From the IMG/VR virus record IMGVR_UViG_2671180577_000016: a stretch of DNA of 15,605 nt; one strand, written 5' to 3'. The DNA comes from a virus (lineage: Duplodnaviria; Heunggongvirae; Uroviricota; Caudoviricetes). Of this stretch, positions 3,791 through 7,304 are shown piece after piece. A model generated the notes under the pieces. The model saw only the letters and a program-made list of their open reading frames with translations, did not search any database and was not told the origin of the DNA. Both the position numbers and the translations under genes were made by a program. Each line of letters starts with the position of its first letter. The first letter of the stretch is position 1.

Positions 3791-5728
3791 GTGACTCTTA
3801 AACGGGCCTGTTCCCTGCTGACGGTGAAATCCTTCAGTGAGGATGAACGGGTGATCACCGGGATTGCGTCAACGCCTTCTCCGGATCGGGATGGTGACAT
3901 CCTGGAGCCGGAGGGCGCGGAGTTTGGCAGTGCGATCCCGTTTCTCTGGCAGCATGACCATTCCCGCCCGGTGGGGCAGTGTACGGTGCGCCGGGTCAGC
4001 GAAGGGCTGGAAATCACGGCAACACTGGTGAAGCCCGTACCGGATATGCCGTCGCAACTGGCTGCCCGGCTGGATGAGGTCTGGGCGGCCATTAAGACCG
4101 GGCTGGTCAGGGGGCTGTCCGTGGGCTTCCGTCCCCATGAATACACCTTTCTGGACGGAGGCGGACTGCATTTTCTGCGCTGGGAACTGATGGAGGTGTC
4201 TGCCGTCACCGTGCCCGCGAATGCGGAATGCACCATCCGGACCATTAAATCTTTCGACCGCCCGTTTTCTGCCGCGTCCGGCAACCGGAAACCGGTGGTG
4301 AAAATCGCATCTTCTGCCGGCGCTTCGGCACAGTCAATAACCTCTTTTCATAAGGAAAAGTCAGCAATGAATACTGGTGAACAGATTAAAAGTTTTGAAA
4401 ACAAGCGTGCGGCGCTGGCAGCCTCCCTTGAGGAGATCATGAACAAAGCCGCAGAGGAAGGCCGCACACTGGATGTGGAAGAGGAAGAGCACTACGACAA
4501 CACCGCAGCGGAAATCCGTCAGGTGGATGCGCACCTGAAGCGTCTGCGTGAACTGGAAACCAGTAAGGCCGCCACGGCACAGCCGGTGAAACAGGCCGGT
4601 AACGGGAATGTGGCCACGGTGGCTTCAGCGCCGGTGATCCGTGTTGAGCAGAAACTGGATAAGGGGATTGGCTTCGCCCGCTTTGCCAAATCGCTGGCTG
4701 CGGCTAAAGGCGTCCGATCTGAAGCCCTGGAAGTGGCCCGTCGTCAGTATCCGGATGACAGTCGTCTGCATCATGTCCTGAAATCGGCAGTGGGCGCGGG
4801 GACCACCACGGATCCGCAGTGGGCAGGCAGCCTGTCTGAATATCAGGAATACGCACAGGACTTTATTGATTACCTGCGTCCGCAGACCATTATCGGGCGA
4901 TTTGGTCAGGGCGGGATCCCTGCACTTCGTCAGGTGCCGTTCAATATCCGTGTGCACGCCCAGGTGTCCGGCGGTGCTGCCGGCTGGGTGGGTGAGGGTA
5001 AGGCAAAACCCCTGACGAAGTTTGATTTTGAATCCATCACCTTCAGTCATGCGAAGGTGTCGGCCATTGCGGTACTGACGGAAGAATTGATCCGTTTTTC
5101 CAGTCCGGCTGCTGATGCACTGGTCCGTAATGCGCTGGCGGAAGCGGTGGTGGCGCGTCTGGATACAGACTTTGTGGACCCGAAAAAAGCCGCAGTGGCA
5201 GATGTCTCCCCGGCGTCCATCACCCATGATGTGAAGGGCACGGCATCAACCGGTAACCCGGATGCGGATGCAGAGGCTGCGTTTGGACAGTTTGTGGCAG
5301 CAAACCTGCAGCCCACCGGTGCGGTCTGGCTGATGTCCAGCACCAATGCCCTGGCACTGTCCATGCGTAAAAATGCGCTGGGTCAGAAGGAATACCCGGA
5401 CATGACCCTGCTGGGTGGCTCCTTCCAGGGGCTGCCGGTGATTGTCTCCCAGTACGTGGGTGACCAGCTGGTGCTGGTGAATGCCCCGGATATTTATCTG
5501 GCGGATGACGGCGGTGTGGCGGTGGATATGTCCCGTGAAGCGTCACTGGAAATGCAGTCTGAGCCGGGCGGCGACAGCACCACACCGTCGCCGGTGGAGC
5601 TGGTTTCCATGTTCCAGACCGGCAGCGTGGCCATCCGTGCGGAGCGCTGGATCAACTGGCGTCGTCGCCGTACTGCGGCGGTGGCTGTGATCACCGGTGT
5701 GAACTACGGCAGTGCGTCCGGCGGCTGA
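3791..5728 (+). CDS. Fused prohead protease (HK97 / S78 family) and major capsid protein (HK97 fold) with a coiled-coil delta-like linker
   Basis: GTG start at 3791 after AGGAGG. The N-terminal ~170 aa carry protease motifs (PFLWQHDHSRPVG, GLSVGFRP, EVSAVTVPAN). A charged coiled-coil segment follows (MNTGEQIKSFENKRAALAASLEEI...). The C-terminal ~380 aa resemble the HK97 major capsid family (GFARFAKSLAAAKG..., VPFNIRVHAQVSGG...). Confidence 0.85.
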   Translation: MTLKRACSLLTVKSFSEDERVITGIASTPSPDRDGDILEPEGAEFGSAIPFLWQHDHSRPVGQCTVRRVSEGLEITATLVKPVPDMPSQLAARLDEVWAAIKTGLVRGLSVGFRPHEYTFLDGGGLHFLRWELMEVSAVTVPANAECTIRTIKSFDRPFSAASGNRKPVVKIASSAGASAQSITSFHKEKSAMNTGEQIKSFENKRAALAASLEEIMNKAAEEGRTLDVEEEEHYDNTAAEIRQVDAHLKRLRELETSKAATAQPVKQAGNGNVATVASAPVIRVEQKLDKGIGFARFAKSLAAAKGVRSEALEVARRQYPDDSRLHHVLKSAVGAGTTTDPQWAGSLSEYQEYAQDFIDYLRPQTIIGRFGQGGIPALRQVPFNIRVHAQVSGGAAGWVGEGKAKPLTKFDFESITFSHAKVSAIAVLTEELIRFSSPAADALVRNALAEAVVARLDTDFVDPKKAAVADVSPASITHDVKGTASTGNPDADAEAAFGQFVAANLQPTGAVWLMSSTNALALSMRKNALGQKEYPDMTLLGGSFQGLPVIVSQYVGDQLVLVNAPDIYLADDGGVAVDMSREASLEMQSEPGGDSTTPSPVELVSMFQTGSVAIRAERWINWRRRRTAAVAVITGVNYGSASGG

Positions 5729-5772
5729 GTCTGATGAGGAGGGCGGGAGGTGAGAGCGTCCCGCAGTAACTG

Positions 5773-5994
5773 ATGGCAAAAATCCGATATCTGCAGGGTA
5801 CACATGATGCCCGGCCCGGGGATATCCGGGATGTCGCACAGCCGTGTGCGGAGGTGCTGGTTCGCCTGAGGAAGGCGGAGTACATCACAGCGCGACGTCC
5901 GGCGGGTCAGAAAAAGAAACATGATGCGGAGCATAGCGAATGTGGAACTTTTTGCGACGAACCCGAAAAAACCAGAAATCAGGACGTGATGTAA
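5773..5994 (+). CDS. Hypothetical small protein (73 aa) in the capsid-portal gap; uncertain
   Basis: ORF MAKIRYLQGTHDARPGDIRDVAQPCAEVLVRLRKAEYITARRPAGQKKK... starts 45 nt after the capsid stop and overlaps the portal start by 55 nt in another frame. The GGAGG-like sequence is about 20 nt upstream, which is a weak ribosome-binding site. No homolog recognised. Confidence 0.25.
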   Translation: MAKIRYLQGTHDARPGDIRDVAQPCAEVLVRLRKAEYITARRPAGQKKKHDAEHSECGTFCDEPEKTRNQDVM

Positions 5995-7304
5995 AAGAGG
6001 TGGGCTGGACCAGCCTGTTTCAGGCGGTGGCTGAGCCCTTTGCCGGCGCCTGGCAGCAGGGGGTGAAAGCCGATCCGGAAAGTGTCCTCTCCTTTCATGC
6101 GGTGTTTTCTTGCATTTCGCTGATATCCCAGGATATCGCCAAAATGCGGCTGCGCCTGATGCAGACGGATACACAGGGGATCCGCCGTGAAAAACGGCAG
6201 GGGGATATTGCCCGTCTCTGTCGTCGTCCCAATGCACAGCAGAATCGTATCCAGTTTTTTGAACTGTGGCTGAACGCCAAACTGCGTCACGGCAATACGG
6301 TGGTGCTGAAAATCCGTAACTCCCGGGGGCAGATCAAAGAACTGCGTATTCTGGACTGGAGCCGGGTTGAACCTCTGGTGGCGGATGACGGCGAGGTGTT
6401 CTACCGCATCACGCCGGACCGGAACTGCGGGATCACGGAGGCGGTGACGGTGCCTGCCCGGGAAGTGATCCACGACCGGTTTAACTGTTTTTTTCATCCG
6501 CTTATAGGATTGCCGCCGGTGTATGCCGCCGGGCTGGCGGCCACGCAGGGGCATCATATTCAGGAAAATTCGACGTCTTTTTTCAGAAATGGTGGCAGGC
6601 CGTCCGGGGTGATTGAGATCCCCGGCAGTATTACGGAAGAAAATGCGAAAAAACTGAAGAGCAACTGGGACAGCGGGTATACCGGCGAAAATGCGGGGAA
6701 AACGGCCATTCTGAGCAACGGGGCAAAATACAACCCCACGACGTTTTCACCGGTGGATGCGCAGACGGTGGAACAACTGAAGATGACCGCTGAAATTGTC
6801 TGTTCGGTGTTCCGTGTCCCGGCCTACAAGATTGGCGTTGGCCAGCCACCTTCCAGTGACAACGTGGAGGCGCTGGAGCAGCAGTATTATTCCCAGTGCC
6901 TGCAGACGCTGATTGAGTCCATTGAACTGTTACTGGATGAGGCGCTGGAAACGGGGGAAAACGAGAGTACGGAGTTTGACGTCACCACGCTGCTGAGAAT
7001 GGACAGCGAACGGCGCATGAAAACGCTGGGTGAGTCGGTGAAAAATACGCTTCTCACGCCCAATGAGGCCCGTAAACGTGAGAACCTGCCGCCCCTGGCC
7101 GGCGGTGATGCACTGTATCTTCAGCAGCAGAACTACAGTCTGGAGGCGCTGTCCCGTCGTGATGCCCGTGAAGATCCGTTTGCGTCGTCCGGGAAAAGAG
7201 TTTCAGCCCAACTGCCTGACGGCGCATCTGACGGTAATAAGGCAATCAGTGAAACAGAGCATGGTGCGTTGAAAGCGATGTTGAGGGGGATACTGCGAAA
7301 ATGA
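5940..7304 (+). CDS. Portal protein (HK97-family)
   Basis: 454 aa with a portal-like N-terminal segment (SFHAVFSCISLISQDIAKMRLRL) and a conserved central region. The exact start is uncertain; 5940 is the most upstream in-frame start. Confidence 0.85.
   Translation: MWNFLRRTRKNQKSGRDVKEVGWTSLFQAVAEPFAGAWQQGVKADPESVLSFHAVFSCISLISQDIAKMRLRLMQTDTQGIRREKRQGDIARLCRRPNAQQNRIQFFELWLNAKLRHGNTVVLKIRNSRGQIKELRILDWSRVEPLVADDGEVFYRITPDRNCGITEAVTVPAREVIHDRFNCFFHPLIGLPPVYAAGLAATQGHHIQENSTSFFRNGGRPSGVIEIPGSITEENAKKLKSNWDSGYTGENAGKTAILSNGAKYNPTTFSPVDAQTVEQLKMTAEIVCSVFRVPAYKIGVGQPPSSDNVEALEQQYYSQCLQTLIESIELLLDEALETGENESTEFDVTTLLRMDSERRMKTLGESVKNTLLTPNEARKRENLPPLAGGDALYLQQQNYSLEALSRRDAREDPFASSGKRVSAQLPDGASDGNKAISETEHGALKAMLRGILRK

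What the first reader, a model, noticed from the sequence alone, without database searches (positions are those of the whole stretch)
3791..7304. Fused prohead protease/major capsid gene placed before the portal gene
One 645-aa ORF carries an HK97-family prohead protease domain, a coiled-coil linker and an HK97-fold capsid domain. It precedes the portal gene, whereas the classical HK97 order is portal, protease, capsid. Fusion implies the protease is delivered at a one-to-one ratio with the capsid subunit and presumably removes itself during maturation. Such fusions are known in some enterobacterial prophages but remain comparatively uncharacterised.
Basis: partly seen in the sequence, partly recalled or inferred. 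Interest (0 to 1): 0.45.

Follow-up and report, generated by a model that had tools for sequence, protein, structure and literature searches.

The report
Nested protease-scaffold-capsid gene in Stx-type prophage
The 645-codon gene really does join a head-maturation protease to the capsid protein and sits ahead of the portal gene, an arrangement already annotated in thousands of genomes; the new point is that it probably also makes a second, protease-free capsid protein from a conserved internal start.

Summary
ORF 3791-5728 (645 aa) holds a Peptidase_S78 domain whose His55 and Ser110 align with the HK97 gp4 catalytic residues. It also has a disordered linker, a two-helix delta-like hairpin and an HK97-fold capsid domain. 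The portal gene follows at 5940-7304.

It is not an artefact. About 1,250 complete E. coli genomes carry 95-99% identical copies, and 76 of 84 related loci from several phyla keep one ORF. All loci where both genes were found keep the order terL, protease/capsid, portal. The fusion is already annotated ("major head protein/prohead protease"), so it is known.

An in-frame start (ATG 4367, Met193, preceded by TAAGGA) lies exactly where unfused relatives start their capsid gene.
- A start codon is present there in 75 of 76 fused genes.
- Its Shine-Dalgarno strength equals that of the true 5' starts (p = 2e-31 against other in-frame ATGs).
- Synonymous codon choice favours the pairing.
- In the window it sits in the most AT-rich, least structured stretch of the ORF.

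The gene is therefore probably nested, like lambda C/Nu3 or herpesvirus UL26/UL26.5. No protein data exist.

The parts
3752..3773 (+). Terminator-like hairpin and U-run between the terL stop (3744) and the capsid gene's ribosome-binding site
   Evidence: Pattern scan and sequence. A T-rich stretch precedes the SD in most relatives. Function not tested.
3780..3793 (+). 5' translation start of the full-length product: AGGAGG (3780-3785), 5-nt spacer, GTG (3791-3793)
   Evidence: SD duplex energy is -10.3 kcal/mol.
3791..5728 (+). 645-aa ORF (69 kDa): protease, linker, delta-like hairpin and HK97-fold capsid protein
3791..4213 (+). Peptidase S78 (HK97 gp4-type) prohead protease domain, aa 1-141. 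His55 is at 3953-3955 and Ser110 at 4118-4120. Ser137 is invariant and Glu135 nearly invariant.
   Evidence: Pfam and NCBIfam hits. hhalign to HK97 gp4 pairs H55 with H65 and S110 with S114. Invariant columns. The model has pLDDT 82-91 over aa 1-140. Top Foldseek hits are herpesvirus proteases, but weakly.
4214..4366 (+). Disordered, length-variable linker (aa 142-192) with small conserved motifs (K153-S-x-D156, A161-A-S-G164, G177)
   Evidence: pLDDT below 50. Gap-rich columns.
4351..4369 (+). Proposed internal translation start: TAAGGA (4351-4356), then ATG 4367-4369 (Met193)
   Evidence: Sequence. The Met column is conserved in 115 of 151 representatives, plus 11 Val. 75 of 76 fused loci have ATG, GTG or TTG here with an SD 5-11 nt upstream. 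The SD minimum is positionally sharp. Synonymous-codon test. This is the lowest-GC, least-structured part of the ORF.
4367..5728 (+). Nested ORF: 453-aa (48 kDa) delta-domain plus capsid product, equivalent to HK97 gp5. Inferred, not shown.
   Evidence: Unfused relatives start their capsid gene at this exact position. NCBIfam major_cap_HK97 matches from aa 204 at profile position 3.
4373..4576 (+). Two long helices (aa 195-223 and 229-262): delta-domain-like scaffold hairpin
   Evidence: AlphaFold models, pLDDT 77-91.
4577..4666 (+). Disordered segment (aa 263-292): probable zone of the maturation cleavage. Inferred.
   Evidence: pLDDT below 50 for aa 263-285. Placed by analogy with HK97 gp5, which is cleaved after its delta domain.
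4667..5725 (+). Capsid shell part (aa 293-645): helical N-terminal region, then HK97 fold. K406 is at 5006-5008, G611 at 5621-5623 (Asn in 85-90% of the family) and E618 at 5642-5644.
   Evidence: Foldseek hits to Bxb1, D3 and HK97. phmmer alignment to the Bxb1 capsid protein. Residue counts.
5773..5994 (+). 73-aa ORF of unknown function between the capsid and portal genes. It overlaps the portal start by 55 nt.
   Evidence: phrog_829. Relatives found only in Enterobacterales loci.
5940..7304 (+). Portal protein (HK97 family), 454 aa
   Evidence: Phage_portal E 4e-81. portal_HK97 scored 355.9 bits.
7301..8362 (+). 353-aa repeat protein that follows the portal gene in most of the related loci where the portal was found. 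It has an N-terminal coiled coil, a 162-bp tandem repeat at 7517-7896 and a C-terminal CBM5/12-like domain.
   Evidence: It forms one ORF with the portal in L016, L062 and L085.

Best explanation
This is the intact head-shell gene of a long-tailed lambdoid (Stx-type, Marienburgvirus-like) E. coli prophage. One reading frame encodes four parts in order: an HK97 gp4-type serine protease (aa 1-141), a flexible linker, a delta-domain-like helical scaffold (aa 195-262) and an HK97-fold capsid protein.

I propose it is a nested gene with two products. Initiation at GTG 3791 gives the 69-kDa protease-bearing subunit. Initiation at the conserved internal ATG 4367 gives a 48-kDa delta-plus-capsid subunit equivalent to HK97 gp5.

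Both products share the same scaffold and shell part, so they would co-assemble around the portal. This places the protease inside the prohead by covalent tethering rather than by a separate targeting tail. The amount of protease would be set by the relative strength of the two starts.

Once the shell is closed, the protease would remove the linker, the delta hairpin and itself. Cleavage is expected around aa 263-292, leaving a shell protein of roughly 37-40 kDa.

What is shown: the domain identities, the conserved catalytic residues, the conservation of the fusion and the gene order, and the sequence signature of the internal start. What is inferred: the two products, co-assembly, the cleavage position and the stoichiometry.
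For: Domains and catalytic residues. Conservation of the fusion and of the gene order.

Evidence for the internal start:
(a) Unfused relatives, including the isolated Burkholderia phage vB_FUBS1, start their capsid gene M-x-x-x-E-Q-I at the position of Met193.
(b) The Met column is kept in 115 of 151 cluster representatives, although the 25 residues before it are gap-rich.
(c) 75 of 76 fused loci have ATG (67), GTG (5) or TTG (3) there. Mean SD duplex energy is -7.2 kcal/mol. This compares with -2.6 for 965 other in-frame ATGs (p = 2e-31; p = 3e-12 in 29 representatives below 60% identity). It also compares with -2.1 to -3.4 for three conserved Met columns.
(d) The internal SD is as strong as that of the genes' real 5' starts (-7.5 kcal/mol).
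(e) The SD signal is positionally sharp, at -15 to -7 nt: -6.5 kcal/mol against a background of -0.84 +/- 0.88.
(f) With the amino-acid sequence held fixed, codon choice favours SD pairing: -7.16 observed against -5.52 expected, p = 7e-7.
(g) In the window, 4328-4415 is the lowest-GC stretch of the ORF (30% against 59.5 +/- 6.7%). It is also the least structured (-4.1 against -18.0 +/- 4.9 kcal/mol per 60 nt). 28 of 29 representatives show the same trend, p = 9e-9.
(h) The eight unfused loci are polyphyletic and each sits next to fused relatives. Loss of the fusion is therefore tolerated repeatedly, as expected if the downstream start already works.

Precedent for nested protease/scaffold genes: lambda C/Nu3, HSV-1 UL26/UL26.5 and HFTV1 gp17/17.5 (bioRxiv 10.64898/2026.09.13.751334).
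Against: - No protein, ribosome-profiling or N-terminal data exist for either product.
- The window's own internal SD is modest: TAAGGA, -6.2 kcal/mol, only in the top 12% of positions in its ORF. It is weaker than its 5' SD of -10.3 kcal/mol.
- A small hairpin may partly cover the internal SD.
- Amino-acid motifs can create SD-like strings. The conserved AEEGR motif gives a secondary dip at +87.
- A K/E/G-rich disordered linker could account for part of both the SD and the AT-rich signals.
- If fusions arise often and recently, the ATG and SD could be relics.
- The loci were ranked by full-length match, which biases the fused:unfused count.
- Volume alone does not exclude every subunit carrying a protease (my estimate, not a tool result).
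Confidence: 0.6

Rival explanations
1. Pure polyprotein. Only the 645-aa product is made. Every shell subunit carries its own protease at 1:1, and all copies excise themselves. The internal ATG and SD are relics of the ancestral capsid-gene start or by-products of amino-acid constraints in the linker.
For: One uninterrupted ORF with a strong 5' SD. The window's internal SD is only moderate. SD-like strings can arise from conserved residues. The Gifsy-2 tripartite capsid gene is described in the literature as a single composite gene (cited in PMC12315714; details from my own knowledge of Effantin et al. 2010).
Against: The start codon, SD spacing, codon choice and low local structure are all kept in lineages below 60% identity, while the surrounding linker is hypervariable. 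The SD core is kept through different amino acids and different codon phases: K-E-K in the window, K-G-N in Salmonella, E-E-G in Pseudomonas and P-K-E-G in Rhizobiales. Relics would not be expected to stay as strong as real gene starts.
Confidence: 0.3
2. False fusion. A sequencing error, frameshift or decaying prophage has joined two separate genes (protease and capsid).
For: Some relatives do have two genes. Many prophage copies in E. coli carry defects in neighbouring genes.
Against: The same 645-aa ORF occurs in over a thousand independently sequenced complete genomes and in inducible Stx phages. Fused ORFs of 630-680 aa dominate across phyla.
Confidence: 0.01
3. The N-terminal domain is a degenerate, inactive protease remnant that now serves only as extra scaffold, and another enzyme carries out maturation.
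For: The Pfam match covers only profile positions 51-155. The NCBIfam protease model scores below its cut-off. The fold search gives only weak hits.
Against: His55 and Ser110 align with the HK97 gp4 catalytic residues. Together with Ser137 they are invariant across 51-54 diverged sequences. No other protease-like gene lies in the head module.
Confidence: 0.03

Closest known systems
HK97 gp4 (prohead protease) plus gp5 (delta domain and major capsid protein)
   Same: Same protease family, with aligned catalytic His and Ser. Same logic of a scaffold built into the N-terminus of an HK97-fold capsid protein. Downstream connector and tail genes are of HK97 type.
   Different: HK97 has two adjacent genes placed after the portal gene. 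Here there is one ORF placed before the portal. Capsid-domain sequence similarity to gp5 is undetectable by profile comparison. The window protein has Gly at the position I equate with the cross-linking Asn.
Gifsy-2 tripartite capsid gene (Effantin et al. 2010, Virology) and Pseudomonas phage MD8 gp5 (PMC8508860)
   Same: A single gene encodes protease, scaffold and HK97-fold capsid protein in a lambdoid temperate phage.
   Different: Those proteases are of the ClpP/lambda-C type, not S78. Their head modules resemble lambda, with a decoration protein (own knowledge for Gifsy-2). Neither paper passage I could read mentions an internal start.
Nested protease/scaffold genes: lambda C/Nu3, HSV-1 UL26/UL26.5, HFTV1 gp17/gp17.5
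   Same: The full-length product carries the protease. An in-frame internal start gives the abundant assembly protein that shares its C-terminal part, which targets the protease into the procapsid.
   Different: In those systems the shared part is a separate scaffold protein. Here it would be the scaffold domain plus the capsid protein itself. For this gene the two products are predicted, not demonstrated.
Annotated protease-capsid fusions: 'putative major head protein/prohead proteinase' of E. coli O157 and Stx phages, PHROG 617, NCBIfam NF045541, actinobacteriophage 'major capsid and protease fusion protein'
   Same: The window gene is 95-99% identical to the E. coli and Stx-phage entries. 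It matches PHROG 617 end to end at E 1e-260. Actinophage fusions have the same architecture.
   Different: It scores 53.9 bits against NF045541, far below the cut-off of 525, so it belongs to a different sequence family with the same architecture. These are annotation labels without experimental work that I could find.

Membership tests
Peptidase S78 (HK97 gp4-type prohead protease) | Significant match to the family profile | tested here: met
   PF04586 scored 34.8 bits against a cut-off of 21. hhalign to HK97 gp4 gave 96% probability, E 4e-9. TIGR01543 scored 46.1 bits, below its equivalog cut-off of 59.
Peptidase S78 (HK97 gp4-type prohead protease) | Catalytic His and Ser at the positions of gp4 H65 and S114 | tested here: met
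   H55 and S110 align with H65 and S114. Both are invariant in 51- and 54-sequence alignments. The identity of the gp4 catalytic residues comes from my own knowledge (Duda et al. 2013, not held).
Peptidase S78 (HK97 gp4-type prohead protease) | Herpesvirus-assemblin-like fold | tested here: inconclusive
   The best Foldseek hits of the N-terminal model are the KSHV, pseudorabies and HCMV proteases. They are weak: E 7e-3 to 7e-2, probability 0.63-0.87, low TM-scores.
Peptidase S78 (HK97 gp4-type prohead protease) | Proteolytic processing of the capsid precursor | not testable with these tools
   Needs biochemistry.
HK97-fold major capsid protein with N-terminal delta (scaffold) domain | Profile match and HK97 fold | tested here: met
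   PF05065 scored 52.7 bits against 24.2. TIGR01554 scored 79.1 bits against 27.5. Foldseek E 2.5e-12 to 1e-9 against Bxb1, D3 and HK97.
HK97-fold major capsid protein with N-terminal delta (scaffold) domain | Helical N-terminal domain followed by a flexible segment ahead of the shell part | tested here: met
   Predicted helices at aa 195-223 and 229-262, then a disordered segment at aa 263-285. Removal by cleavage was not tested.
HK97-type chainmail (Lys-Asn isopeptide, Glu catalyst) | Lys in the E-loop, Asn in the P-domain and Glu seven residues after the Asn | tested here: not met
   K406 and E618 are present, but position 611 is Gly in the window and in the E. coli copies at 90% identity or more in which the motif could be found. 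85-90% of the family has Asn there. The mapping rests on the phmmer alignment to the Bxb1 capsid protein. It also rests on the N-x6-E pattern of HK97 and Ogopogo (bioRxiv 10.1101/2022.09.09.507160). It is not a structural superposition.
NCBIfam NF045541 (prohead protease/major capsid protein fusion protein) | Score above the model's cut-off | tested here: not met
   53.9 bits against 525, and only over aa 48-265.
Nested protease/assembly-protein genes (lambda C/Nu3 type) | In-frame internal start codon with its own ribosome-binding site at the domain boundary | tested here: met
Nested protease/assembly-protein genes (lambda C/Nu3 type) | Two polypeptides actually made from the one ORF | not testable with these tools
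   Needs N-terminal proteomics, immunoblots or ribosome profiling.
Gifsy-2-type tripartite capsid gene | ClpP/lambda-C-type protease at the N-terminus | tested here: not met
   The only protease family detected is S78.
Classical HK97 head-gene order | terL, portal, protease, capsid | tested here: not met
   The window has terL, protease-capsid, portal. HK97 has the classical order. The window's order is shared by all related loci in which both genes were found.

The most novel reading that the evidence does not exclude
S78 protease-capsid fusion genes, found across many bacterial phyla, would be two-product nested genes. A conserved internal ribosome-binding site makes a protease-free delta-capsid subunit, while the full-length product tethers the protease to a subset of shell subunits. 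This would extend the lambda C/Nu3 and herpesvirus UL26/UL26.5 scheme to HK97-type heads, where the shared part is the capsid protein itself. It would also explain why lineages switch repeatedly between fused and separate genes.
Probability: 0.6. Interest if true: 0.5.

Novelty: already known. Interest (0 to 1): 0.35.

Why it matters
The fused gene itself is routine annotation in Shiga-toxin phages and many prophages. Confirming it mainly guards against the idea that it is an assembly error.

The useful outcome is a testable prediction about how these phages dose their maturation protease. If the internal start works, the protease:capsid ratio is set by two ribosome-binding sites in one ORF. 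That is the same solution used by lambda, herpesviruses and an archaeal virus, and it would strengthen the case for a shared assembly logic across HK97-fold viruses.

It also matters for annotation. The nested 453-aa product is never called. In addition, the neighbouring split portal / repeat-protein pair is flagged as a frameshifted pseudogene in RefSeq, although the split form is the common one in related loci.

Tried and rejected
- Sequencing-error or frameshift fusion: rejected on conservation.
- Sequence search of the protease domain against PDB found nothing meaningful.
- Foldseek of the N-terminal model gave only weak herpesvirus-protease hits. I did not use the third fold-search job.
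- The family profile against HK97 gp5 gave no alignment. The cross-link residue mapping therefore rests on the Bxb1 alignment and the motif pattern only.
- The search for related loci with the 51-sequence alignment failed for lack of a conserved stretch. A 10-sequence alignment worked.
- Liu & Mushegian 2004 and Duda et al. 2013 are not held. What I say about them comes from memory.
- Literature searches for proteomics or an internal start in this phage group found nothing.
- I considered a programmed -1 frameshift at A_AAA_TGA (7298-7304) joining the portal to the next gene. The fused E. coli variant is instead explained by G6 in place of G5 at 7285-7289.
- The homologue search for the 353-aa protein returned only near-identical E. 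coli copies, so no useful alignment for structure prediction was possible. I used a profile built from locus translations instead.
- The CBASS-escape preprint and the Phage_Finder paper turned out not to bear on this gene.

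
Full report
**Context.** The window is the late (head and tail) operon of a long-tailed lambdoid prophage. Genes on the + strand:
- HNH endonuclease, 881-1246
- terS, 1535-2098
- terL, 2095-3744
- the 645-aa ORF, 3791-5728
- a 73-aa ORF, 5773-5994
- portal, 5940-7304
- a 353-aa repeat protein, 7301-8362
- gp6-like connector, head-completion protein, gp10-like protein, tail-completion protein, tail tube, chaperones G and T, and tape measure

The 3791-7304 stretch is 95-99% identical to copies in 1,252 of 5,426 complete E. coli genomes. 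It also matches 93 phage records, mostly Stx1a-, Stx2a- and Stx2c-converting phages, phage 2851, YYZ-2008 and JLK-2012 (genus Marienburgvirus). Those records call the gene "putative major head protein/prohead proteinase", "phage prohead protease", "capsid and scaffold" or "major capsid protein".

The ORF starts at GTG 3791, with AGGAGG 5 nt upstream.
- Pfam finds Peptidase_S78 (aa 48-152) and Phage_capsid (aa 386-635), both above their gathering scores.
- NCBIfam major_cap_HK97 matches aa 204-584 from profile position 3.
- PHROG 617 matches end to end, E 1e-260.
- A profile of 54 family members aligns with HK97 gp4 at 96% probability. His55 falls on gp4 His65 and Ser110 on gp4 Ser114.
- His55, Ser110 and Ser137 are invariant, and Glu135 nearly so, in alignments at 36-57% identity to the window protein.

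AlphaFold models (mean pLDDT 72 and 74) give these segments:
- a beta-rich domain, aa 1-141
- a disordered linker, aa 142-193
- two long helices, aa 195-223 and 229-262
- a second disordered stretch, aa 263-285
- a helical region, aa 293-370
- an HK97 fold to the C-terminus

Foldseek matches the capsid part to the capsid proteins of Bxb1, D3 and HK97 (E 2.5e-12 to 1e-9). The N-terminal model's best hits are herpesvirus maturation proteases. That is the expected fold, but the scores are weak.

**The fusion is real and old.** A protein cluster 97% identical to this product, also 645 aa long, has 9,916 member sequences. Copies of 644-650 aa at 73-77% identity occur in Salmonella, Enterobacter, Klebsiella, Serratia, Pantoea and Kosakonia. 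Against 1.84 billion cluster representatives there are 12,609 hits, and about 140 of the best 150 are full-length fusions of 630-680 aa at 38-54% identity.

I fetched eighty genomic loci. They come from Enterobacterales, Pseudomonas, Rhizobiales, Burkholderiales and Paracoccus. They also include MAGs labelled Flavobacteriaceae, Tissierellaceae, Mycobacterium, Vicinamibacterales, Binatia and Hydrogenedentota.

I searched the stop-to-stop ORFs of these loci, and of four fetched earlier, with the window's proteins. 76 have protease and capsid in one ORF and 8 have them in two. In every locus where both genes were found the order is terL, protease/capsid, portal, usually followed by a relative of the 353-aa protein and a gp6-like connector.

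The isolated Burkholderia phage vB_FUBS1 has the same order with separate protease and capsid genes. "Capsid before portal" is therefore a trait of a whole clade and does not depend on the fusion. HK97 has the classical order.

**A conserved internal start.** A few cluster representatives are capsid-only proteins whose first residue aligns with Met193 of the window protein. In an alignment of the query with 150 representatives, that column is Met in 115 and Val in 11. The 25 residues before it are gap-rich and variable.

In the eight unfused loci the protease ORF ends with a stop, and the capsid gene begins M-x-x-x-E-Q-I at exactly this position. One example is "...IRKI* TAAGGAACCATTATTATG" in L061.

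Six lines of evidence from the 76 fused ORFs point to a working start:
1. 75 have ATG (67), GTG (5) or TTG (3) four to eight codons before the E-Q-I anchor.
2. The predicted pairing energy with the 16S rRNA tail in the -20 to -4 region averages -7.2 kcal/mol. This compares with -2.6 for 965 other in-frame ATGs (Mann-Whitney p = 2e-31). Three conserved internal Met columns give -2.1 to -3.4. The result holds in 29 representatives below 60% identity (p = 3e-12).
3. A quarter of the loci carry near-perfect AAGGAGG or GAGGAGG, against 0.4-0.7% of background positions.
4. The internal sites are as strong as the genes' true 5' starts (-7.5 kcal/mol).
5. The signal is positionally sharp. The mean energy of 9-nt windows reaches -6.5 kcal/mol at -15 to -7, against -0.84 +/- 0.88 elsewhere within 90 nt.
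6. With the amino-acid sequence fixed and synonymous codons resampled by each gene's own usage, the expected energy is -5.5 kcal/mol against -7.2 observed (Wilcoxon p = 7e-7).

The amino acids encoded over the SD differ between lineages: K-E-K in the window, K-G-N in Salmonella, E-E-G in Pseudomonas and P-K-E-G in Rhizobiales. The GGAG or AGGA core and its spacing persist.

**Evidence within the window itself.** TAAGGA (4351-4356) precedes ATG 4367. This SD is moderate, at -6.2 kcal/mol and in the top 12% of positions in its own ORF. However, 4328-4415 is the lowest-GC part of the whole ORF (30% against 59.5 +/- 6.7%). It is also the least structured (-4.1 against -18.0 +/- 4.9 kcal/mol per 60 nt). 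28 of 29 representatives are less structured around this site than their gene average (p = 9e-9).

On a neighbour-joining tree of the capsid parts, the eight unfused genes are scattered. Each sits next to fused relatives at 46-77% identity. That is what one expects if a stop or frameshift in the linker is harmless because the downstream start already works.

**Most likely mechanism.** The gene yields a 69-kDa protease-linker-delta-capsid protein and a 48-kDa delta-capsid protein (masses). The two share everything needed to co-assemble, so the protease is carried into the prohead by covalent attachment to some subunits. After assembly it removes the linker, the delta hairpin and itself, leaving a shell protein of roughly 37-40 kDa if cleavage falls in the disordered aa 263-292 segment.

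This is the scheme documented for lambda C/Nu3, HSV-1 UL26/UL26.5 and, by ribosome profiling, the archaeal virus HFTV1 gp17/gp17.5. The difference is that the shared part here includes the capsid protein.

The relative strengths differ by lineage. In Enterobacterales the 5' SD is stronger (-9 to -10 against about -5.6 to -6.2 kcal/mol), and in the window and JLK-2012 the 5' start codon is GTG. In many alpha- and gammaproteobacterial relatives the internal SD is the stronger (-12 against -6). I cannot estimate the ratio.

**Caveats.**
- Nothing here shows the proteins.
- A conserved AEEGR motif produces an SD-like dip 87 nt downstream with no start codon after it. Residue conservation can therefore mimic an SD.
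- A disordered Lys/Glu/Gly-rich linker could contribute to both the purine-rich and the AT-rich signals.
- The locus set was ranked by match length, which favours fusions.
- A weak hairpin may include part of the window's SD.
- By my own rough volume estimate, a T=7 prohead could hold a protease on every subunit, so sterics do not decide the matter.

I put the nested-gene reading at about 0.6 and the pure 1:1 polyprotein at about 0.3.

**Comparison with what is known.** The closest characterised case of a protease-scaffold-capsid gene is Gifsy-2, cited in PMC12315714. The in-silico case is Pseudomonas phage MD8 gp5 (PMC8508860). Both use a ClpP/lambda-C-type protease rather than S78.

Fusions of an HK97-type protease to the capsid protein are a standard annotation in actinobacteriophages and Rhodobacter phages. 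They also have an NCBIfam model, NF045541. The window protein falls far below that model's cut-off (53.9 against 525 bits), so it shares the architecture but belongs to a different family. I found no paper describing an internal start in any of these fusions.

**Verdict.** The finding as stated is correct and already known, and by itself ordinary. The stoichiometry inference is probably wrong. The comparative evidence for a nested second product is the part worth an experiment.

Noticed in passing
window 7285-7304: A G5 tract lies 14 nt before the portal stop. With G5, as in the window, the portal and the 353-aa gene are separate and overlap by ATGA. An E. coli copy with G6 (L085) has them as one ORF. 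RefSeq annotates the split form as a 'frameshifted' portal pseudogene (L088), yet the split form is the one seen in Salmonella, Serratia and most distant loci.
   Followed up: partly
window 7301-8362: The 353-aa protein follows the portal gene in most of the related loci. It has an N-terminal coiled coil, IPxPxDG repeats and a conserved C-terminal domain of about 90 aa resembling CBM5/12 chitin-binding modules (profile against PDB, E 1e-5). Relatives carry collagen Gly-x-y repeats. It is fused to the portal in L016 and L062 and absent from Burkholderia phage vB_FUBS1. Its function and its location (inside or outside the head) are unknown.
   Followed up: partly
window 7517-7896: A 162-bp tandem repeat (2.3 copies, 92% matches) lies inside the 353-aa gene. 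JLK-2012 has one more unit, giving a 407-aa product.
   Followed up: partly
window 5621-5623 (Gly611); also 5006-5008 (Lys406) and 5642-5644 (Glu618): The family keeps a K-P motif in the E-loop and N-x6-E near the C-terminus, like the HK97 (K169/N356/E363) and Ogopogo (K63/N283/E290) cross-link residues. The window and the E. coli copies at 90% identity or more in which the motif was found have Gly instead of the Asn, while the 77%-identical Salmonella/Enterobacter group has Asn. Several relatives lacking the Asn (L084, L035, L070, L073) also lack the Glu. This predicts that this E. coli lineage lacks chainmail cross-links.
   Followed up: partly
window 3752-3773: A terminator-like hairpin with a U-run sits between the terL stop and the capsid gene's ribosome-binding site. 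A T-rich stretch precedes the SD in most Enterobacterales and Pseudomonas relatives. HK97 also has putative terminators inside its head operon.
   Followed up: no
window 3789-3794: ATG 3789 overlaps the GTG start and is followed at once by TGA, making an ATG-TGA mini-ORF sharing the same Shine-Dalgarno sequence.
   Followed up: no
window 5773-5994: A 73-aa ORF (phrog_829, unknown function) lies between the capsid and portal genes and overlaps the portal start by 55 nt. Relatives were found only in Enterobacterales loci. More distant loci have a gap of 30-600 nt (several kb in a few) at this position instead.
   Followed up: no
loci L076, L078, L080, L082 (protease ORF ends): In these four unfused relatives the separate protease ends with a shared tail...VVKL...R.(K/Q/A)PFVIR.I(K/N).... 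This may be a capsid-targeting peptide that the fusion makes unnecessary. The window linker keeps only 'PVVKI'.
   Followed up: no
locus L085 (E. coli LR025101.1): In this prophage copy an IS21-family element interrupts the portal gene, and in L089 terL is frameshifted. Many E. coli copies of this module are therefore defective even though the capsid gene stays intact.
   Followed up: no
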